Source: a plasmid
Strand: one strand, 5' to 3'
Assembly: GCF_053078305.1 (NCBI RefSeq)
Contig: NZ_CP166878.1
DNA length: 32,715 nucleotides
The position numbers were made by a program, and so were the translations under genes. Shown here one piece after another: positions 1 through 32,689 of the stretch. The notes beneath the pieces are model-generated. The model was not told where the DNA came from. It saw nothing but the letters and a program-made list of their open reading frames with translations, and did no database searches. Each line of letters starts with the position of its first letter. The first letter of the stretch is position 1.

Positions 1-1866
1 ATGCAAGCAAATGATGAGTTTCTTCGCTTGGTTTTTGAAAACATATGGCCATGGTGGACATATGCCTGGGTTTTAGTTTTTTCTTTGTTATGTGTGTTTA
101 CATTTTCGGGTCATGCAGAAAAAAGTGGTGATAAGAGTACTCTGCGTTTCATTATTGAAGCAGCCAGGAAGAAATTACTTGTTGCATGGATTTTATGTAC
201 TCTTTTGTTCTTTCTATTTGTGTACATAATAGCGTGGAAACACTTTGGGGAAGATTCACATAAAGCATCACTTTATATGGAGTTATTGTATGAGCGGATT
301 GGTGACAAATCTTTCTCATTTGGTGATTATTGTGGTATAGCATTTGTGCTACTTTTTCCCTATGCCTGTCAGATAATTAATCGCCGTCTTATAAGACCAA
401 AACTATCATCATGGCTTCGTCGTTTTCGTGTGTCTCAGACCTCGGATACTATGAGTGATATTCGTGTTGAGAAAGGTAAATATTCGCCTAAAAACTTCAA
501 TCCTTTAGATTATTATAAGGATGGTCATTTCTTTTTAGGATTAGATGAAAATGATAAAGCAATCTACGTTACAGATGACTATTTGTCTAAAGTAAATATT
601 AAAATTTTAGGCGCAACGCAAACGGGTAAAGGTGTTATTCAGGGGGTTATTGCAGACCAGGCAATATTGAAAAATTGGGGTTTGTGGTTCTGGGATCAGA
701 AACCAGATAAATTTATTTACTCGATTATGAAACAACGTTGTGAGTCAGAGGGGCGAGAAATATATGAAGTTGATTTGAATGGTGAAGGTATAGGTGATTA
801 TGCGCCATTTAAGAATGGTACAAAACGTGAAATTTTGGATAGGTTTTTTAATGCGTTTTCTCTTGAGACTGGCGGGACTGATGCAGACTATTACAAAAAT
901 AATGCACAGGAGGTTATGTACTATATATATACTTTTTGGGACCGTTCGTTAAACGATTTACAAAAATTGTTGTCTGGTAGTGATGATAGAATACCGGAGG
1001 AAAAACAGGAATGGATAGCTAAAAATGGAGCTAATATTCGAACGCAGCTTAATAAATGGTTAGAGCTTCCTTGTCTATCTCCCGCTGATGGTCAGGGATT
1101 AAATGTAACTGAACTGGTTAAGTCAGGTGCGGTTATTTATGTAAAAGGTAGCACAAAAGATAAGGTTGTCAGGGCTGTCTTAAAATCAATGTTGCGTGAG
1201 TGGTCTGCGGCTGTTATTCGTGAACAACCAAAAAATCATGTGTTGGGGATAATTGATGAGGCCCGTTTTGTTATCTCGTCAGAGGTTGCTGATAGTCTGG
1301 CAACTATATTATCCTCAAATGCAAGTTTGTCTATTGCATATCAAGAGAGAGATGACCTTTTAAATATACCGGATGAAAAACCGCAGATTGCTCAGTCAAT
1401 AAAAAAAGGGACGGAAACAAATACCAATTTGACACTTGTTTATCGTTGTAATGACGAGACGGCTGAATGGGTTGCCAAAAATTCTGGTACAACTGCGAAG
1501 AGTCTGACAAAACTTGAAGAAGTCGAAACTGACGGTTATGGCGCGGAAACATGGAAGGGACGACGAATGATTGGACAGGAAGAGGATTACTATATACCAG
1601 TAAATACGGTTCTTGCAGTTGAAGAACGAGTTGGTATTATGCAGACTATGTTTGAACTCAGTCGGGTTTTATTTACATGCTGGGTTCCTGTTCAACGTTT
1701 TTATACACTTCCGGCCCGCCCTCAAACGGAGCACGATAATGTTCAGGATTGTATAAAGAATGATGGTTCAATTTCTCCGAGTGATGAGGATTACTTTAAT
1801 CCTGACATGATTAGTGATGAAGAGCTAGCGATGATAAATAAAACAGTATCGTCAGACAGTAAATAA
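1..1866 (+). CDS. virD4: Type IV secretion coupling protein (VirD4/TraG-family ATPase)
   Basis: 621-aa ORF with Walker A-like GATQTGKG and Walker B-like hydrophobic-DE (LGIIDEARFV), N-terminal hydrophobic segments. ORF begins at window edge, so the true start may lie upstream. Confidence 0.7.
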   Translation: MQANDEFLRLVFENIWPWWTYAWVLVFSLLCVFTFSGHAEKSGDKSTLRFIIEAARKKLLVAWILCTLLFFLFVYIIAWKHFGEDSHKASLYMELLYERIGDKSFSFGDYCGIAFVLLFPYACQIINRRLIRPKLSSWLRRFRVSQTSDTMSDIRVEKGKYSPKNFNPLDYYKDGHFFLGLDENDKAIYVTDDYLSKVNIKILGATQTGKGVIQGVIADQAILKNWGLWFWDQKPDKFIYSIMKQRCESEGREIYEVDLNGEGIGDYAPFKNGTKREILDRFFNAFSLETGGTDADYYKNNAQEVMYYIYTFWDRSLNDLQKLLSGSDDRIPEEKQEWIAKNGANIRTQLNKWLELPCLSPADGQGLNVTELVKSGAVIYVKGSTKDKVVRAVLKSMLREWSAAVIREQPKNHVLGIIDEARFVISSEVADSLATILSSNASLSIAYQERDDLLNIPDEKPQIAQSIKKGTETNTNLTLVYRCNDETAEWVAKNSGTTAKSLTKLEEVETDGYGAETWKGRRMIGQEEDYYIPVNTVLAVEERVGIMQTMFELSRVLFTCWVPVQRFYTLPARPQTEHDNVQDCIKNDGSISPSDEDYFNPDMISDEELAMINKTVSSDSK

Positions 1867-2987: not shown

Positions 2988-3000
2988 ACATTTAGCATTA

Positions 3001-3080
3001 TATGCTTATATGCTTATATGCTTATATGCTTATATGCTTATATGCTTATATGCTTATATGCTTATATGCTTATATGCTTA
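3001..3080. repeat. Perfect tandem octamer microsatellite (TATGCTTA x10)
   Basis: Ten uninterrupted head-to-tail copies of TATGCTTA directly readable in sequence, starting 14 bp after the virB11 stop. Confidence 0.95.
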
Positions 3081-3105
3081 TATCATTGTGTTTGTGTGAA
3101 ATATT

Positions 3106-4233: not shown

Positions 4234-4560
4234 TTATGTGTCTGACATTTTTCCAATCATGATTTCTGTGAGATTTGTATCAGCAAAATCTCCTTTCCCC
4301 GATTCAGTGTCAAAGTCGCCTGGCGTGAACTTATGTACGTCTTGCCAGACTGCGAAGCAGGTAGGGCATGTTACAGGTAGTTCGCCCTCCGCTATCTTTT
4401 CACAACTTTCTACCAGTTCTTGTTTCTCGTTGTACCTGATGTTATAGCCGCTTGTGCAAAGCGTTTCATACCCGTGAGCGCCCGTCACTATATGTGTGGC
4501 GGTTCTTTCTGTGATTTTTCCATCAACTAATAACTGTTCATGCGTTGTGATCGTTTGCAT
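4234..4560 (-). CDS. Hypothetical Cys-rich protein (108 aa)
   Basis: ORF with CxxC-type cysteines (CTSGY...CEKIAEGELPVTCPTC); no family recognised; lies between repeat copy 2 and the virB3-like gene. Confidence 0.45.
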   Translation of the reverse strand: MQTITTHEQLLVDGKITERTATHIVTGAHGYETLCTSGYNIRYNEKQELVESCEKIAEGELPVTCPTCFAVWQDVHKFTPGDFDTESGKGDFADTNLTEIMIGKMSDT

Positions 4561-4704
4561 GTCTGTCTCTCATAATTGTTGGTTTATGTGATTGTTGGGG
4601 CGACCGTAAAAATATACGCCAGATGATGGGAGAGCATCTTATTTCGTATTGCTCAAAAAAACATATGACAAATATCACAAAAATGAAGTGCAGGTATTGA
4701 CATC

Positions 4705-4717
4705 GGGGGGGGGGGGG
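4705..4717. repeat. Homopolymeric G13 tract in divergent intergenic region
   Basis: 13 consecutive G read directly, 71 bp upstream of the virB3-like start. Confidence 0.9.
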
Positions 4718-4787
4718 TAACGTAAAGATTATAAATATAAATTTTACAAAACGTAAAAATATACTACGTCATTCGGTAAGAAATCAA

Positions 4788-5120
4788 ATGGCTGAAATAA
4801 AAGGAAAAATAACCAATCCCGCACTGGTTAATGCAAAAGTTTTTTACAACAGACGAACAAAGCTGGGGATACCTACAGAGGTCTTTTTGATCCTGATGTT
4901 CCTGAATGTTTTTGCTGTTGTGCTGTGTGTTATGTATTTCAGCACATTTTCCGTTATTTCGCTGATTTTATTTGTTCTGGTATCGGTTGTTCCTATGAAG
5001 TTCGTTTTTCATGGCGATCCCGATGCTCATAAAGCTTGGATTTATGGTTATTTGTCACCTTCCAGGCTGAACAATACCCACGCAGTGAAGCGTCGTATCA
5101 CATTTATAGACGCTATTTAG
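4788..5120 (+). CDS. virB3: VirB3-like small inner-membrane T4SS protein
   Basis: 110 aa, hydrophilic N-terminus then one long hydrophobic region (GIPTEVFLILMFLNVFAVVLCVMYF...); position immediately upstream of pilin and VirB4 genes. Confidence 0.55.
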   Translation: MAEIKGKITNPALVNAKVFYNRRTKLGIPTEVFLILMFLNVFAVVLCVMYFSTFSVISLILFVLVSVVPMKFVFHGDPDAHKAWIYGYLSPSRLNNTHAVKRRITFIDAI

Positions 5121-5149: not shown

Positions 5150-5497
5150 ATGCTCAATCGCATTTCCAGAAAGATATCAACATTCCAGATAATGCTTTAC
5201 GTAGCATTAGTGACAGGAAGTGTCACACCGGCTATGGCTGCTGGTAATAGTACAGTTAAACTTCCTACGCCGGATGATAGTTTTTTACAGAAAATCGTTA
5301 ACTGGATGCAAAGTATTCTGGATCTGGTTGGTGGGGCTGGAGCTTTGTTCTTTGCGTTTGTCAGTGGGTTTGCTTGTATTGTGTTGTGGGGACTTGCACC
5401 GCAACAGAGCCAGGCTATCGGGAAACTGTTTCGTGCTGCTGTTGCAGCAATTGCAGCGTTTAACCTGGCGTTCTTTATTGCCTGGCTGCAAAAATGA
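5150..5497 (+). CDS. virB2: VirB2/TrbC-like pilin precursor
   Basis: Long signal peptide ending AMAAG, two hydrophobic helices (GGAGALFFAFVSGFACIVLWGL; AAVAAIAAFNLAFFIAWL); ATG 5150 with AGAGG RBS (ORF track extends to GTG 5141). Confidence 0.65.
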   Translation: MLNRISRKISTFQIMLYVALVTGSVTPAMAAGNSTVKLPTPDDSFLQKIVNWMQSILDLVGGAGALFFAFVSGFACIVLWGLAPQQSQAIGKLFRAAVAAIAAFNLAFFIAWLQK

Positions 5498-5508
5498 GGT
5501 GATCCACG

Positions 5509-8109
5509 ATGGGGCAGAGCTATAACGAACATCTGAATCTGGCAGGCATCGAACAACATTCCGGGCAGGTGTATACCTATACTGGAGGTGCTTTTGGTGC
5601 TATTGAACTGACAGGTGTTGATCCAACGGGTGTTACCCCTTCTCAGGGTAGCCGTATTTCTTTATTACTTCGTAATATCGTTCAGTTACTGCCCCTTTCT
5701 GTCACACTGACTCAGTATTATATCCATAATGACGGCGTTAAGATCCGGCTGACAGGGCGTGATAATCAACGCAGTCAGTTACTTTCTATGCGTCGCCAGG
5801 CATATCTTAATAAATGTCGTAATTTAAATGCCTCAAGAATTATATGGACGCTGGATGTTCACCCGGAAGAGAATATTAATCGCCTGGCATCTGCCGAGTT
5901 TTTAAAGAATCTTTTTAACAGCATGTTTGATGACACAGCCAGACGTAAAGTCAGGCTGGCACTGTCAAATCGCGAATCGTTTATCATTGAGCGTCAGGCA
6001 TTTGAAAAACAGTGCCTGTTGCTGAAAGAAACATTACGCGATCTGGACTTACGCCTTTCTTTTATTTCAGAAGATAACAGGATTCTTGATTCAGAAGGGA
6101 TCTGGCGATTACAGAAGTTCCTTGCAACATTTAATCACCATTGGCTGGCTCCACGCCGTAAGGTCACTGTACCCAATGATATGTGGGATTGTCTGGCGAT
6201 TGAAGGTGACGATATCGAGGCCATTACCTGGCGTGGCGTTGATATGTTGAAGATCCAGGGGGTACGGCCTGTTTATGTTCGCCTGGCCAGTGTGTTGAAA
6301 ATAGGCGATGAATCTGTACCGGAATGTGCCTGGGCGCTGACAAATGGCAGACCAGTTTTACAGCGGGGTAACTACGTTTACTTCATGCGGTTCACTCCCG
6401 CCAGTGCCTTTAAGAAGTCACTGATGATCAGCGGGAAAGAAAACGAACTTGTCAGGACTCAAATCAGTTTGAGCGATTTAATGACTGACAGTACGAGCAA
6501 AGATATTCTCGATGAAAAATTGCGCAGAAATTCACATCTGATGAAGATGCGCGAAGAACTGGAGAATATTTCATATTCAGATGAGCGCCTGGGGATCTGC
6601 CAGGCCGGGATTGCTGTATTTAATACAGATCCCGATAAATTACTTGAGACTTGTGCGGATATTAACCGTAGTGTCTCTCAGACCATGCAAGTTGTATGGG
6701 AGACGGTAGCACAACTGGATGCTTACAAGGTTATGCAACCAGCCTACTCACGCAATACATTTCGTGCATTACAGCTTAACGCATCTCAGATGGGGGCGGC
6801 ATCCTTGTTCTTTAAATCCCATCCAGGTATTCCTGAATGGGAGCTAAATGGACGCATGGAGGAAGCCTTCTATATTCTTGAATCAGATGATGGCGTGCCG
6901 TTTTTCTTTACGCCAAAAGTTAAAGAAAAGCTACTGCTTCTTGGTAATGGGGCGACCCGTGGCGGCAAGACTTTTATGAAAAACTGTATTGCCAGCCATT
7001 TTATTAAATTCGGTGGTCTGTATAACTGTCTGGATATCGATCCTGGCTCTATCCCAATGGCTAATTTCTTTGGGGATGATGGGGCAGCATTTACCCTTGA
7101 TAGCGATTTTCAGTGTGGTTTTAACATGTTCAGTATGGCGCAAAGCAAGGATGACAGGGTATTTCTTGCGCATCTTATAGAGCAGTTAAAAGCAATGGCA
7201 GCAGAAAATGACAGTGAGCAGGATAAATATTTAACGCCTGATGAACTTGAAAATATAACAGTGTGTGCGAGTGATCTTCTTGTACAAAAATTTTCGCCGA
7301 ATGAGGGGCGTTTAAGCTCAATCACGTTGTCAACGCTGGTTTCTAAGTGTGGTCAGAGCGTTAAACGCAAGTTAGCGCCATTTATTAGTAATGGTATTTA
7401 TGGACGTTTATTTGATAACAAAGAGGACGCGATTGGTGTTCTTGATAAGCCGGTAGCTGTTTACAACCTTTCAGGTGTGAAAGATAACCATAATCTTGCG
7501 CGGCTTGTGCACCGTGAAATCTTCTTTCGTGTCGTTCGTTTGTTTGAATCACCGGAATATCGCACGATACCAAAGTTTTTTGAAATAGATGAGGCACAGT
7601 ACACCCTGTCTGTACCACATGCCGCAGAGTTCGCTACACAGAAAGCCCGAACCTGGTTTAAGCATGGTGGGGGTATGGGATTCTGGACTCAGAACCCGGA
7701 GCACTATTCATCACTGGATGAGTGGACTACGTTACGTTCCTCGGCGTCGGTGTTTATCTTTATGCCGGATAATGAGGCAACAGTTAAAGCATTCCATGAT
7801 GCTTATGGCTTCGATGAAGAAGAAGTGAATATTATTCGCAGCCTTAAGGTAAAACAGCAGTCGTATATAAAGATCCCGGACATGCAGATTGCAAAAGTGG
7901 TGAATCTGTTTGTTGAGGCTGAACAGTATGCTGTTTGTACATCAACGTCTAATGAAGCAGCCCTGGCAGCGGAAATATGGAAACGTGAATCAGATCCCGA
8001 TGTTGCAGTGCGACAGATTGTAGAAGGTCTGATAACGAAGTGTAATAAGGACTTGATCCCAACGCCTACAGAGACTGAAAAGGATAAAACGGAGGGGTTT
8101 TTCTTATGA
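5509..8109 (+). CDS. virB4: VirB4-family T4SS ATPase
   Basis: 866-aa ORF, Walker A GNGATRGGKT, size and position typical of VirB4/TrbE; RBS GAGGTGA. Confidence 0.9.
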   Translation: MGQSYNEHLNLAGIEQHSGQVYTYTGGAFGAIELTGVDPTGVTPSQGSRISLLLRNIVQLLPLSVTLTQYYIHNDGVKIRLTGRDNQRSQLLSMRRQAYLNKCRNLNASRIIWTLDVHPEENINRLASAEFLKNLFNSMFDDTARRKVRLALSNRESFIIERQAFEKQCLLLKETLRDLDLRLSFISEDNRILDSEGIWRLQKFLATFNHHWLAPRRKVTVPNDMWDCLAIEGDDIEAITWRGVDMLKIQGVRPVYVRLASVLKIGDESVPECAWALTNGRPVLQRGNYVYFMRFTPASAFKKSLMISGKENELVRTQISLSDLMTDSTSKDILDEKLRRNSHLMKMREELENISYSDERLGICQAGIAVFNTDPDKLLETCADINRSVSQTMQVVWETVAQLDAYKVMQPAYSRNTFRALQLNASQMGAASLFFKSHPGIPEWELNGRMEEAFYILESDDGVPFFFTPKVKEKLLLLGNGATRGGKTFMKNCIASHFIKFGGLYNCLDIDPGSIPMANFFGDDGAAFTLDSDFQCGFNMFSMAQSKDDRVFLAHLIEQLKAMAAENDSEQDKYLTPDELENITVCASDLLVQKFSPNEGRLSSITLSTLVSKCGQSVKRKLAPFISNGIYGRLFDNKEDAIGVLDKPVAVYNLSGVKDNHNLARLVHREIFFRVVRLFESPEYRTIPKFFEIDEAQYTLSVPHAAEFATQKARTWFKHGGGMGFWTQNPEHYSSLDEWTTLRSSASVFIFMPDNEATVKAFHDAYGFDEEEVNIIRSLKVKQQSYIKIPDMQIAKVVNLFVEAEQYAVCTSTSNEAALAAEIWKRESDPDVAVRQIVEGLITKCNKDLIPTPTETEKDKTEGFFL

Positions 8110-17649: not shown

Positions 17650-17710
17650 CAACCCCCTGATATCTCTCTTAGAGCTTTTGCGGGGCCAAAGAAGATAATC
17701 AGGGGGTCCA
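17650..17710 (+). promoter_or_regulatory. Long stem-loop in repA leader (candidate antisense-RNA target)
   Basis: Arms CCCCCTGATATCTCTCTT / AAGAAGATAATCAGGGGG around an 18-nt loop containing GCCAA (one base off the conserved IncFII/IncB loop hexamer); location upstream of leader peptide and repA. Confidence 0.45.
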
Positions 17711-17743
17711 AAGCAGGCTTTTGCCTGTAAAGGATTATAGCAA

Positions 17744-17800
17744 ATGCATTTTTCAATACAAGACTACTGCCCGGCAATAAGTGCGGGCGGTGGTGGCTGA
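17744..17800 (+). CDS. Leader peptide overlapping repA start (translational coupling candidate)
   Basis: 18-codon ORF MHFSIQDYCPAISAGGGG whose stop lies 17 nt inside repA, the arrangement seen for tap/repY-type leader peptides. Confidence 0.45.
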   Translation: MHFSIQDYCPAISAGGGG

Positions 17801-24843: not shown

Positions 24844-24963
24844 TATACAATCACTTGATTCGATAATCATAAAATCAAGTGATTTTATGATTGCATAATT
24901 TTATGAGTATGAGATTATTAGAATGTTTGGCAGAGGTACTATGTGAACAAAGGGGAGGGGCAA
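24844..24963 (+). promoter_or_regulatory. par promoter-operator (candidate centromere/operator)
   Basis: Perfect 12-bp inverted repeat AATCACTTGATT ... AATCAAGTGATT plus reiterated TGATT motifs directly upstream of parA. Confidence 0.6.
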
Positions 24964-25587
24964 ATGCCTAAAGTTATAGCATTTTTAAATGGTAAGGGGG
25001 GGGTGTCTAAGACAACCTCGGCAGTCAATATTGCTACTGCTCTTGCTCGTAAGGGATACAAAGTTGTCGTTGTGGATACCGATCCTCAGGGAAGTGTTAG
25101 TAACTGGTATGATGACAGTAAGTGTGTTTTTGATGTAGCAGAAGCTACGACAGAAAAAGAAATTTACCGTTTGCGGAAGGCGCTTCCTTTGCACGATTTT
25201 ATCATTATTGATGGTGCTGCGGCGATTTCGGCGATATCGGCAGCTGCTGTTATGGTTTCTGATCTTGTCATTATCCCAGTTACTCCTTCGCCGCTTGATT
25301 TTGCTGCATGTGGCGCGATATTGGCAGTGATAGAAGCTCGGCAGGATTTACGCCCGGTGATTGCTCGCTTTTTGATTACTAAAAAAGTACAGCAAACGCA
25401 TATGCTATCTTTGCTGAAAGAATCTATTGCAGAAACAAGCATACCAGCATTAAAAACAGGAACGTCGTACAGGCAGTCATATATAAAGTCTATGCTAGAT
25501 GGTGGTACTATATTTGATACAAAAGATAGTGCTGCTAAAGGTGAAATATCAGTCATTACAGAAGAAATACTTGGACTATTAAAATGA
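24964..25587 (+). CDS. parA: ParA-family partition ATPase (ParF-like)
   Basis: Deviant Walker [19 protein letters not shown]; ATG 24964 with GGGGAGGGG RBS (ORF track begins at upstream GTG 24943). Confidence 0.9.
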
Positions 25588-27049: not shown

Positions 27050-27349
27050 TTACAGGTGGAAAGCCATACGCTTGCCTGTAGGCAATGTCACGTCCAGGCT
27101 TAACTCGCCGCCCAAAGCTTTTACATAACGTTTAAGCGTCGATATTCTCGGATCGTTGTCAGTTTGCTCCATCCTGGCAACTGATGGTTGTTTTACTCCC
27201 ATCATTGTAGCCAGTTCGGTTTGGGATATGTTCAGTTCATCACGTAAAGCACTAAGTGCGAGCTGAATGCTGGCTTTTTCAACTCGGTCGGCTACGTGCG
27301 CCTGCATTTCAGGACTCTCTTTAGCCAGTAGTTCTCTGTAGGTAGCCAT
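27050..27349 (-). CDS. XRE-family helix-turn-helix protein (HigA-like antitoxin/regulator candidate)
   Basis: HTH segment NISQTELATMMGVKQPSVARME and C-terminal LKRYVKALGGEL; start set at the ATG preceded by GGAGAAA RBS (ORF track extends to 27400). Confidence 0.65.
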   Translation of the reverse strand: MATYRELLAKESPEMQAHVADRVEKASIQLALSALRDELNISQTELATMMGVKQPSVARMEQTDNDPRISTLKRYVKALGGELSLDVTLPTGKRMAFHL

Positions 27350-27720
27350 GTTATTTCTCCAGTTTTGCAAGATGTTCACGGTATTCATTATATACTGCAT
27401 TATAACGAATACACTATAATTTCCAGAAGAACAGGGCTATTTAACATAATGGACGTTATCAGCACCACCGGATCACAGTTCGTTGTCAGATCTGAAAAAT
27501 CCGCTCAAAAGATCATGTTTTCCTGGGCGTTTTTCGTCGTTTTTTATGTTGCTTATTTGTTAATAAAATCTCGTTTCTTGTTTTGGCTGAATTTGGATGT
27601 GAAAGCCTTATATTTGCAAGTTATCCGGTGAAGGGAGGTAGCCGAGACTGAGGATTGATTGTTTTGTACAAGTTCTAATGCATAATGTGTACATATAGTA
27701 GCGTTAGCATAGGGCGTAGT

Positions 27721-31885: not shown

Positions 31886-31996
31886 CAGTATAATATTTAA
31901 CCTGTAAGCGCAGCGCAAGGAATCTCTTTATAAGGTATTCCCATATGTTGATTTCTTTTATGTAGCGGTTACTACATAGCTTTTATGAGGATTTCG

Positions 31997-32689
31997 ATGA
32001 TTTACCGTTTTAAAACCGATTTTATGCGTCAGATAGCCATGCTGTTTTCGCTGGGATATACAAGGTGGTTTGGTGGCGAAATTCCTCTAAACCCTCACTA
32101 TAAATTCGTGTCACTAAAAGCACGTTTTGATGAACTCTACGCTATCAATGCAACAGCACAACAACGTTTCAGGAGAAGAGAAAAAGGAGTAGCAAACTGC
32201 AAATTTCTTGTCTGGTTTGATGAAAAAAATGCAACTCTTTTATGGGTGTTACTTGCAACAGAAGGGGATGTATACAATGAAGAGAAATTTTATGATGGTA
32301 TGAATAAAAAAACTCGTATTTCTGTTTCAGGTTATGAACTAAAAACAGTTCCACATCGAGGTAGAAAACCTAGCGTTTCATGGGCTATGAAGAAAGAAAC
32401 TTATGAAAAGTGGCATGCGGATATAAAGAAGTCGATAAGAACAAGAAATGATGAGAATATAGAAAAATTATGGTATTCACTCAGGAGGGTGGCAGGGTTT
32501 AGTGAGTTACGTAGACAGGTATTTAAGTTACAGAGATATGCAATGACAGAGTGGAAACGCTCCAGAAGAGGTGAATATCCTTATGAGAAGATTTTTGTTG
32601 GATGGTTAGGACGATTTAAACAAAGTGAAACCATCACAGATGAAGAGCTTTTGTTAATATCGAAGTCAAAAAAAGCTGATATCTTTTAG
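31997..32689 (+). CDS. Hypothetical protein (about 230 aa), basic/aromatic-rich
   Basis: ORF with GAGGA RBS before ATG 31997 (track start 31985); preceded by inverted repeat ATGTAG-N6-CTACAT; no family recognised. Confidence 0.5.
   Translation: MIYRFKTDFMRQIAMLFSLGYTRWFGGEIPLNPHYKFVSLKARFDELYAINATAQQRFRRREKGVANCKFLVWFDEKNATLLWVLLATEGDVYNEEKFYDGMNKKTRISVSGYELKTVPHRGRKPSVSWAMKKETYEKWHADIKKSIRTRNDENIEKLWYSLRRVAGFSELRRQVFKLQRYAMTEWKRSRRGEYPYEKIFVGWLGRFKQSETITDEELLLISKSKKADIF

What the first reader, a model, noticed from the sequence alone, without database searches (positions are those of the whole stretch)
4705..4717. G13 homopolymer in the divergent promoter region upstream of the pilin/VirB4 operon
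Homopolymeric G tracts of this length are classic phase-variation switches. Here the tract lies between a minus-strand gene and the virB3-like gene, where length changes could modulate T4SS expression. It could equally be an assembly artefact.
Basis: partly seen in the sequence, partly recalled or inferred. Interest (0 to 1): 0.45.

Follow-up and report, generated by a model that had tools for sequence, protein, structure and literature searches.

The report
Slippery G-run in plasmid T4SS promoter
A real, conserved run of 12-13 G's sits next to a perfect promoter -35 box upstream of the mating-channel (type IV secretion) genes of a very common cryptic E. coli plasmid, where it plausibly acts as a mutational dimmer switch, though on/off switching has not been shown.

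Summary
The G13 run at 4705-4717 is real and far beyond chance (0 of 100 shuffles). It is not an assembly artefact. The same tract is present in 45 independent assemblies of this ~30 kb E. coli plasmid family: G13 in 24, G12 in 18, and an interrupted 13-mer in 3. Identical flanking haplotypes carry either length. Low-coverage metagenome contigs show G9 and G6, and many short-read contigs break at the tract.

It lies 2 nt after a perfect TTGACA that opens a 91-bp block (4697-4787), invariant apart from tract length, ending at the virB3-like start codon. The 136 bp to its left are highly polymorphic. All relatives of this T4SS lack the tract and instead carry a divergent HTH regulator gene, which this family has lost.

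With TTGACA as the -35, G12/G13 give 14-15 bp spacers to TAACGT, the worst register. Longer or shorter tracts would bring -10-like hexamers to 16-18 bp.

Best reading (about 0.4): a slippage-prone promoter spacer that keeps T4SS expression low and throws off rare higher-expressing variants. Expression switching, transcription starts and within-culture heterogeneity are untested, and ±1 calls may be sequencing error. It would be a new member of a known kind.

The parts
4705..4717 (+). G13 homopolymer (C13 on the minus strand). G12 or G13 in related plasmids, rarely G9, G6 or interrupted.
4697..4702 (+). Perfect -35 consensus TTGACA, 2 nt upstream of the tract. It is the first bases of the invariant block. 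One relative has TTGATA.
4718..4723 (+). TAACGT, a -10-like hexamer (TAnnnT). It is 15 bp from TTGACA at G13 and 14 bp at G12; it would be 17 bp at G15.
4724..4732 (+). Alternative -10-like hexamers AAAGAT (4724-4729), AAGATT (4725-4730) and GATTAT (4727-4732). They would sit 17 bp from TTGACA at G9, G8 and G6.
   Evidence: for n=8-18; the G6 register is by arithmetic
4697..4787 (+). Block invariant except for tract length in 27 compared family sequences. It is the presumed promoter/operator/5'UTR of the T4SS operon. One search tested 4697-4704 and 4718-4787.
4728..4757 (-). Best-scoring consensus promoter of the region, on the minus strand: TTTACG (4757-4752), 18 bp, TATAAT (4733-4728). The predicted +1 is near 4721, so C13 would be +5 to +17 of a transcript toward the 108-aa gene.
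4561..4696 (.). Polymorphic left half of the intergenic region: 13 of 136 sites polymorphic, pi 0.034.
4655..4661 (+). Second length-variable homopolymer, A7 here and A6-A9 among plasmids. Its length does not compensate for G-tract length.
4605..4617 (+). Copy 1 of the 13-nt perfect direct repeat CGTAAAAATATAC.
4752..4764 (+). Copy 2 of CGTAAAAATATAC. It contains TATAC(T), another -10-like element 23-28 nt upstream of the virB3-like ATG.
4788..5120 (+). virB3-like gene (110 aa, two hydrophobic segments), first gene of the T4SS operon.
5150..5497 (+). Pilin-like (VirB2/TrbC-like) gene, 115 aa. The profile match is weak.
5509..8109 (+). VirB4-family ATPase.
4234..4560 (-). Divergent 108-aa gene with CxxC motifs and no family match. 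Homologues at 76-79% DNA identity occur in many IncF/IncI plasmids. It occupies the place of the HTH regulator found in relatives.

Best explanation
The tract is an inherited, slippage-prone G:C run that forms most of the spacer of the only consensus-type promoter candidate for the T4SS operon: TTGACA (4697-4702), then TC plus G(n), then TAACGT (4718-4723). At the lengths seen in isolates (n=12 or 13) the spacer is 14-15 bp. That is too short for efficient sigma-70 use, so the operon is held at low or no expression.

Replication slippage changes n. Gains to 14-16 would bring TAACGT to 16-18 bp. Losses to about 8-10 or 6 would bring AAAGAT, AAGATT or GATTAT to 16-18 bp. Either way, rare cells would express the mating channel more strongly, and the change is reversible.

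This plasmid family has lost the divergently encoded HTH regulator that all relatives keep at this position. The tract may therefore have taken over the job of keeping a costly T4SS mostly silent.

Shown: the tract, its conservation, its length polymorphism, its position against TTGACA, the invariance of the flanks, and the loss of the regulator. Inferred: that TTGACA is the -35 in use, that length sets expression, and that switching occurs within cultures.
For: 1. The tract is real and non-random.
2. It is present in all 45 independent family assemblies: G13 in 24, G12 in 18, and a 13-mer with one substitution in 3.
3. G12 and G13 both occur on three different haplotypes that are otherwise identical over about 780 bp. 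This means repeated change, or repeated miscalling.
4. G9 occurs in three contigs and G6 in two contigs from metagenome or SRA assemblies.
5. The tract is uninterrupted in 42 of 45 and confined to two lengths. The intrinsically more stable A7 tract 50 bp away shows four lengths. This suggests selection on G-tract length.
6. The flanking blocks 4697-4704 and 4718-4787 have 0 of 78 polymorphic sites, against 13 of 136 immediately to the left. The conserved block begins exactly at TTGACA.
7. In a consensus scan with n=8-18, TTGACA is the only -35 whose partner lies across the tract. n=12 and 13 are the only lengths in the scanned range with no -10-like hexamer at 16-19 bp.
8. Nine loci of relatives at three divergence levels lack any G-run in the intergenic region. 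Of these, eight carry a gene divergent from virB3-like at this position. The five of those genes that were compared are mutually homologous HTH-type genes. The window has no homologue anywhere.
9. With G13+TAAC removed, the window's TTGACATC-GTAAAGATTATAAATATAAAT aligns to the TTGACTCAGTAAAGTTTATATATAAAT of the Enterobacter and Salmonella relatives (z=4.0; 2 of 300 shuffles reach the score).
10. Homopolymer spacers that set promoter strength are established in N. meningitidis opc (PMC6389960) and Bordetella fim genes (PMC1891110).
Against: No isolate shows a length that would give a 16-18 bp spacer, so an ON state has never been observed. No G14-G16 was seen at all.

Only two adjacent lengths occur in isolates, far narrower than the 5-6 lengths reported for Bordetella fim2 and fim3 (PMC1891110). 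A 12-versus-13 difference is within the error of short- and long-read homopolymer calling. Many short-read contigs break at the tract, which shows the reads there are problematic.

The G9 and G6 contigs have very low coverage (one is labelled cov 1.76) and could be visible only for n divisible by 3.

TAACGT is a weak -10 (3 of 6). The tool's own promoter scan found no plus-strand promoter here, and its best hit is on the minus strand.

The relatives' own TTGAC motifs do not have clean -10 partners either, so TTGAC might be an operator half-site rather than a -35.

The family is tight (97% identity or more), so conservation of the tract has limited evolutionary depth.
Confidence: 0.4

Rival explanations
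1. The tract is a static promoter-disabling insertion or a passenger. A G-run expanded once in the spacer and pushed the -35 out of register. This perhaps compensated for the lost repressor, or perhaps was simply tolerated. It has since been inherited by a young, successful plasmid lineage. The 12/13 differences are mostly homopolymer miscalls or inconsequential slippage, and there is no adaptive switching.
For: Isolate-level assemblies show only 12 or 13. The family is at least 97% identical. PLSDB holds no intermediate relative between 99% or more and less than 60% VirB4 identity. The 72-85% VirB3-like relatives lack the tract. Short-read assemblies often break at the tract, and one Logan contig carries substitutions inside it. 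No productive spacer length has been observed.
Against: A 13-G run with no selection on its length would be expected to drift, shrink or acquire interruptions. It is uninterrupted in 42 of 45 assemblies. Its length range is narrower than that of the nearby A7 tract, even though the adjacent left region has accumulated 13 SNP sites. G9 and G6 each occur in two separately accessioned metagenome assemblies. Differences of 4 and 7 nt from G13 are not typical sequencing errors.
Confidence: 0.27
2. The tract acts on the minus-strand gene. Transcription from TTTACG-18-TATAAT (4757-4728, minus strand) would start near 4721 and read straight into C13 at +5 to +17. Tract length or transcriptional slippage there would modulate promoter escape or the 5'UTR of the 108-aa gene's mRNA.
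For: This is the highest-scoring consensus promoter in the region, with 10 of 12 matches. It lies inside the invariant block.
Against: The predicted 161-nt leader has no significant structure, and C13 is unpaired in it (z=-0.42). Most of that leader lies in the polymorphic left region. In IncF/IncI plasmids, homology to the 108-aa gene ends about 13 bp upstream of the ORF, so those copies share no DNA with this tract-bearing region. I know of no precedent for a C-run leader switch.
Confidence: 0.12
3. The tract is a structural or spacing element. The rigid G:C run (A-like helix, potential G-quadruplex or i-motif) would insulate the two divergent promoters. Alternatively, it would set the helical phase between the repeated CGTAAA(A/G)AT motifs at 4605, 4721 and 4752, which a regulator might bind.
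For: There is a 13-nt perfect direct repeat at 4605 and 4752, and a related G-run plus CGTAAA unit at 4597 and 4713.
Against: The A tract and the G tract both lie between the repeats. Their summed length ranges from 14 to 22 with no compensation, so no fixed phasing is kept. No candidate regulator was identified. The motif is not found elsewhere on the plasmid above chance.
Confidence: 0.08
4. The tract is an assembly or sequencing artefact and does not exist in the plasmid.
For: Poly-G is a known artefact of some sequencing chemistries (my own knowledge). Contigs often end at the tract.
Against: The same tract, between the same flanks, is present in 45 assemblies from many laboratories and platforms. 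These include hybrid Nanopore/Illumina closed plasmids, such as pEc631_3 (PMC7249450).
Confidence: 0.01

Closest known systems
Neisseria meningitidis opc promoter poly-C tract. The porA poly-G spacer is a second example, cited from my own knowledge.
   Same: A G:C homopolymer of about 11-14 nt lies inside a sigma-70-type promoter, and its length tunes transcription by slippage. PMC6389960 reports shifts from 11C to 12C or 14C in 5 of 17 analysed clones and cites Sarkari et al. 1994.
   Different: Length-dependent expression and in-culture switching are demonstrated in Neisseria and untested here. Here the host is mismatch-repair-proficient E. coli, the gene set is a plasmid T4SS operon, and the lengths observed fall in the non-productive register.
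Bordetella fim2, fim3 and fimX promoter 'C-stretch'
   Same: A long C/G tract (10-18 nt) lies between an upstream recognition element and the -10 region of genes for a surface filament, and it is polymorphic among isolates (PMC1891110).
   Different: Bordetella tracts span 5-6 lengths among strains and work with the activator BvgA. Here only 12 and 13 are seen in isolates, and no activator is known.
Haemophilus influenzae hifA/hifB divergent promoters with TA repeats (my own knowledge; van Ham et al. 1993)
   Same: A repeat tract lies in a divergent intergenic region upstream of pilus genes, and repeat number sets the -35/-10 spacing.
   Different: There the repeat lies in the overlapping spacers of both promoters. 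Here only the plus-strand candidate spans the tract.
Repressor-controlled divergent T4SS promoters of the related plasmids (pKPC_UVA01 type; the Enterobacter and Salmonella ~31 kb plasmids). pLS20 is a general example (PMC4207663, title and abstract only).
   Same: The gene order VirB11-like, divergent small gene, virB3-like, pilin-like, VirB4 is the same, with a TTGAC motif at the left edge of the intergenic region.
   Different: Relatives encode a conserved HTH regulator there and have no homopolymer. The window has an unrelated 108-aa gene, no homologue of that regulator, and the G tract.

Membership tests
Simple-sequence-repeat contingency locus (transcriptional phase variation) | A repeat tract long enough to be hypermutable by slipped-strand mispairing | tested here: met
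   An uninterrupted run of 12-13 G, the longest run in the window, and absent from 100 shuffles. That runs of this length are slippage-prone is established knowledge, not measured here.
Simple-sequence-repeat contingency locus (transcriptional phase variation) | The tract lies within or between functional promoter elements of the controlled gene | tested here: inconclusive
   The tract lies between a perfect TTGACA and -10-like hexamers inside an invariant block 70 nt upstream of the virB3-like ATG. No transcription start is mapped, and the consensus scan reports no plus-strand promoter at the observed length.
Simple-sequence-repeat contingency locus (transcriptional phase variation) | Tract length is polymorphic among closely related isolates, independently of phylogeny | tested here: met
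   G12 and G13 both occur on three otherwise identical haplotypes, and G9 and G6 occur in metagenome contigs. Caveat: a ±1 difference may be a sequencing error.
Simple-sequence-repeat contingency locus (transcriptional phase variation) | Length heterogeneity within a clonal culture, with high-frequency reversible switching | not testable with these tools
   There is no access to raw reads. Frequent contig breaks at the tract fit either heterogeneity or poor read quality.
Simple-sequence-repeat contingency locus (transcriptional phase variation) | Expression of the downstream gene changes with tract length | not testable with these tools
   This needs reporter fusions or RNA data.
VirB/Trb-like (P-type) type IV secretion gene cluster | VirB4 ATPase together with VirB8, VirB9, VirB10, VirB11 and coupling-protein homologues in one cluster | tested here: met
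   VirB4 matches TIGR00929 (E=2e-36), VirB9 matches TIGR02781, VirB10 matches NF038091, VirB11/TrbB reach E about 1e-36, and a TraD-like coupling protein is present. RefSeq annotation names VirB8/TrbF, TrbG/VirB9, TrbI/VirB10 and TrbM. All scores are below the NCBIfam curated cut-offs, so this is a divergent member.
VirB/Trb-like (P-type) type IV secretion gene cluster | VirB3 and VirB2 (pilin) homologues immediately upstream of VirB4 | tested here: inconclusive
   Pfam VirB3 E=0.0029 and T4SS_pilin E=0.076. Size, hydrophobic pattern and position fit. A 54%-VirB4 relative has the equivalent gene annotated as VirB3 family.
Self-transmissible (conjugative) plasmid | A recognisable relaxase and oriT | tested here: not met
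   MOB-suite types all ten PLSDB members as non-mobilizable. The 234-aa ORF upstream of the coupling protein has no family match. The 237-aa protein encoded next to VirB11 in pKPC_UVA01 has no homologue in the window. The plasmid is nevertheless found in very many E. coli and in a Salmonella Poona record.

The most novel reading that the evidence does not exclude
A widespread cryptic E. coli plasmid lost the repressor that controls its relatives' mating-channel operon. It replaced that regulated control with a mutational one. The hypermutable G-run in the promoter spacer keeps nearly all carriers silent and continually generates a small transfer-competent minority. This would be a natural simple-sequence contingency locus in Enterobacteriaceae and, as far as I could find, the first reported to govern a plasmid T4SS.
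Probability: 0.25. Interest if true: 0.7.

Novelty: new member of a known kind. Interest (0 to 1): 0.45.

Why it matters
E. coli is generally described as using DNA inversion and Dam methylation for phase variation, not simple-sequence repeats (my own knowledge). Plasmid transfer genes are normally described as controlled by repressors.

If this tract does set T4SS expression, it would show a plasmid using mutational bet-hedging to balance the cost of its mating apparatus against the need to spread. The plasmid family is large: its VirB3-like protein is indexed in about 3,500 blocks of the assembly collection.

There is also a practical point. The tract is a systematic breakpoint and length-error site in short-read assemblies of these plasmids. 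ORF callers also produce spurious N-terminally extended 'VirB3-like' proteins when the call is G12.

Tried and rejected
- **Exact-pattern scans.** JGI metagenome contigs were scanned with two patterns and the species-representative genomes with one. All returned 0 hits, so they gave no extra tract lengths.
- **Sensitive blastn.** The intergenic region plus the first genes, searched against PLSDB, found only the same ten family members. DNA-level comparison beyond the family was not possible.
- **Multiple alignment.** A MAFFT alignment of the intergenic regions of relatives was uninformative. Only a targeted local alignment with G13+TAAC removed gave a modest signal.
- **The 108-aa divergent protein.** Pfam and NCBIfam gave no family. 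Its context in an IncI-type plasmid was uninformative.
- **Rfam.** The whole-window search found only the PK-repBA replication pseudoknot, and nothing at the tract.
- **RNA fold.** The putative minus-strand leader has no significant structure.
- **DNA looping or phasing.** The idea that the A and G tracts compensate to keep the repeated motifs in helical phase was rejected. Their summed length varies from 14 to 22.
- **Relocated regulator.** The idea that the plasmid's other HTH protein (27050-27397) is the relocated T4SS regulator was rejected, as there is no similarity.
- **oriT at the tract.** This was considered and not pursued. No relaxase could be identified, and nothing nic-like was tested.
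- **Literature.** Searches found no description of this tract or of homopolymer control of a plasmid T4SS in E. coli.

Full report
**What is there.** Window 4705-4717 is a run of exactly 13 G. It is the longest homopolymer in the 32.7-kb window. No G13 or C13 occurs in 100 dinucleotide-preserving shuffles. It lies in a 227-bp intergenic region between two genes:
- a minus-strand 108-aa ORF (4234-4560);
- a plus-strand 110-aa virB3-like ORF (4788-5120), followed by a pilin-like ORF (5150-5497), VirB4 (5509-8109) and VirB8, VirB9 and VirB10 homologues.

The VirB3 and pilin assignments rest on weak profile matches, gene order, and a relative's annotation. The VirB4, VirB9, VirB10 and VirB11 assignments are clear, although divergent.

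**What the window is.** It is essentially a whole member of a tight family (97% identity or more) of 27-35 kb cryptic E. coli plasmids. PLSDB holds 10 records and complete RefSeq E. coli genomes hold 14. One member, pEc631_3, was published as an 'IncFII family' plasmid with no resistance genes, from a hybrid Nanopore/Illumina assembly (PMC7249450). The exact VirB3-like protein is indexed in about 3,500 blocks of the assembly collection, so the plasmid is very common. A Salmonella Poona record also carries it. MOB-suite calls the family non-mobilizable, and I could not identify a relaxase.

**Artefact or real?** I extracted the tract from 45 independent assemblies: closed plasmids, draft genomes and plasmid-sized metagenome contigs. 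All have it between the same flanks.

| Tract | Assemblies |
|---|---|
| G13 | 24 |
| G12 | 18 |
| 13-mer with one substitution (GTG11, G12A, G6AG6) | 3 |

 The tract is therefore a genuine inherited feature.

Its length is not tied to phylogeny. Three haplotypes that are identical over about 780 bp each occur with both G12 and G13.

ORF callers create an N-terminally extended VirB3-like protein when the tract length is a multiple of three. This let me look at a protein cluster for other lengths. It contains G12 forms, G9 forms (three contigs) and a G6 form (two contigs), all from low-coverage metagenome or SRA assemblies.

Short-read assemblies have trouble at this site:
- Eight of 29 sampled contig places end within about 50 nt of the tract.
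- 'Partial' VirB3-like ORFs that start at a contig edge just downstream of the tract stand for dozens of contigs, for example 43 for a single break point.

So tract length really differs between records, but a ±1 difference in any one record cannot be told from homopolymer miscalling without the reads.

**Anatomy around the tract.** Two nucleotides upstream is a perfect TTGACA (4697-4702). In 27 compared family sequences, 4697-4704 and 4718-4787 have 0 of 78 polymorphic sites. The 136 bp immediately to the left have 13 polymorphic sites (pi 0.034), several times the diversity of the flanking coding regions. The conserved block thus begins exactly at TTGACA and runs to the virB3-like ATG.

A second homopolymer, A7 at 4655-4661 in the variable part, occurs as A6, A7, A8 and A9. 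A much less slippage-prone tract therefore shows more length states than the G tract. This argues that G-tract length is under selection.

I rebuilt the region with n = 8-18 G and scanned both strands for consensus promoters. TTGACA is the only -35 whose partner lies across the tract.

| -10-like hexamer | Spacer from TTGACA | n giving a 17-bp spacer |
|---|---|---|
| TAACGT | n+2 | 15 |
| AAAGAT | n+8 | 9 |
| AAGATT | n+9 | 8 |
| GATTAT | n+11 | 6 |

In the scanned range, n = 12 and 13 are the only lengths with no -10-like hexamer at 16-19 bp. At those lengths the spacer to TAACGT is 14-15 bp.

The tool's own scan finds no plus-strand promoter at the native length. Its best hit is on the minus strand: TTTACG, 18 bp, TATAAT (4757-4728). 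A transcript from there would start near 4721 and read into C13. That leader has no significant predicted structure.

**Relatives.** PLSDB has no intermediate relatives at the DNA level. The protein database does have VirB3-like proteins at 72-85% identity, from about 31-kb contigs of Enterobacter hormaechei and Salmonella Bullbay and from metagenomes. More distant plasmids, at 36-54% VirB4 identity, include pKPC_UVA01, a Providencia plasmid, and Vibrio and Pseudomonas plasmids.

None of these has a G-run in the corresponding intergenic region. Eight loci (pKPC_UVA01, the Providencia plasmid and six of the 72-85% relatives) carry a small gene divergent from virB3-like. The five of those genes that were compared are mutually homologous HTH-type genes (29-55% identity, E down to 1e-38). 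They also have a TTGAC motif a few bases from that gene's start.

The window has no homologue of this regulator anywhere (tblastn E > 0.4). Its other HTH protein is unrelated. In place of the regulator it has the 108-aa gene, which it shares with many IncF/IncI plasmids.

If G13+TAAC is removed, the window's TTGACATC-GTAAAGATTATAAATATAAAT aligns with the TTGACTCAGTAAAGTTTATATATAAAT of the Enterobacter and Salmonella relatives (z = 4.0; 2 of 300 shuffles reach the score). This is modest evidence that the tract is an insertion or expansion inside an ancestral promoter region.

**Most likely mechanism (confidence about 0.4).** The tract is the spacer of the T4SS operon promoter. In this lineage the conserved repressor was lost. 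A G-run in the spacer now holds the -35 out of register, so expression of a costly surface apparatus stays low. Because the run is slippage-prone, cells with longer or shorter tracts and a better-spaced promoter arise continually and can revert.

Deviation in either direction would raise expression. Selection in bulk populations would therefore pin the modal length at 12-13, which would explain the narrow distribution despite hypermutability.

The sequence facts are shown. Use of TTGACA as the -35, the dependence of expression on length, and switching within cultures are all inferred. The main weaknesses are these:
- No productive length has been seen in an isolate.
- No G14-G16 was seen at all.
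- TAACGT is a weak -10.
- The relatives' own TTGAC motifs lack clean -10 partners, so TTGAC could be an operator half-site instead.

**Rivals.**
- **Static promoter-disabling insertion or passenger (0.27).** The tract is inherited by a young lineage and its length differences are noise.
- **Action on the minus-strand 108-aa gene through a C13 leader (0.12).**
- **Structural or phasing element (0.08).** This would work between the repeated CGTAAA(A/G)AT motifs at 4605, 4721 and 4752. It is weakened because the summed A and G tract length varies from 14 to 22 without compensation.
- **Pure artefact (0.01).**

**Comparison with known systems.** In mechanism this would resemble the promoter homopolymers of N. 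meningitidis opc (PMC6389960) and of Bordetella fim2, fim3 and fimX (PMC1891110). It would also resemble porA and the H. influenzae hifA/hifB divergent promoters, both cited from my own knowledge.

Of the defining features of a contingency locus, two are met here: a hypermutable tract, and length polymorphism independent of phylogeny. Location within a mapped promoter is inconclusive. Within-culture switching and length-dependent expression could not be tested.

I found no report of such a tract controlling a plasmid T4SS, or of this tract in particular. If confirmed, it would be a new member of a known kind in an unusual host and gene context.

**Verdict.** The artefact explanation is rejected. 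The phase-variation reading is plausible and partly supported by comparative evidence, but it remains unproven. Interest is moderate (0.45).

Noticed in passing
window 2998-3083: A perfect 8-bp tandem repeat, (TTATATGC) x 10.8, lies between the end of the VirB11-like gene and ccdA. Copy number differs among related plasmids: 3, 7, 9, 10, 12 and 15 copies. This is a second hypervariable repeat on the same plasmid, of unknown function.
   Followed up: partly
window 4655-4661: An A7 tract in the same intergenic region occurs as A6, A7, A8 and A9 among family members. Its length partly follows haplotype, and it does not compensate for G-tract length.
   Followed up: yes
window 4605-4617 and 4752-4764 (also 4597-4613 versus 4713-4729): There is a 13-nt perfect direct repeat, CGTAAAAATATAC, on both sides of the G tract. 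A related unit, GGGGCGACCGTAAAAAT versus GGGGGTAACGTAAAGAT, suggests the G13 may have grown from a short G-run in a duplicated unit. These could be operator sites. The motif is not enriched elsewhere on the plasmid.
   Followed up: partly
window 4234-4787 compared with L054-L062, L030 and L031: Every relative of this T4SS checked at this position except the Vibrio and Pseudomonas plasmids has a small gene divergent from virB3-like, and the five compared are homologous HTH-type regulators. This plasmid family has no homologue anywhere. It carries an unrelated 108-aa CxxC protein there, shared with IncF/IncI plasmids.
   Followed up: yes
window 4683-5120 and proteins P0001, P0002, P0022-P0031: When the tract is called G12 (or G9 or G6), gene callers produce spurious N-terminally extended VirB3-like proteins of 143-165 aa that contain a poly-Gly stretch. 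Public protein clusters hold many of these, plus 'partial' forms that start at contig ends next to the tract.
   Followed up: yes
window 24996-25003: A G8 run lies inside the Walker A codons (GKGGVSKT) of the ParA-like partition ATPase ORF (24943-25587). It is the second-longest G run in the window. I did not check whether it varies.
   Followed up: no
window 17651-17778: Rfam matches the PK-repBA pseudoknot (86 bits). The replicon therefore uses the pseudoknot-type control of rep translation named in that Rfam family. This sits alongside the published 'IncFII family' typing (PMC7249450).
   Followed up: no
window 1-1866 and 31985-32689: The 621-aa protein is a divergent coupling protein, TraD-like and 45% identical to a 661-aa protein of pKPC_UVA01. 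No relaxase could be recognised, and the 234-aa ORF just upstream has no family match. How this very widespread plasmid moves is unclear.
   Followed up: partly
L036 (ERZ28595870 scaffold_1480), equivalent of window 4697-4702: One family member has TTGATA instead of TTGACA next to a G12 tract. It is the only change seen in the -35-like hexamer.
   Followed up: no
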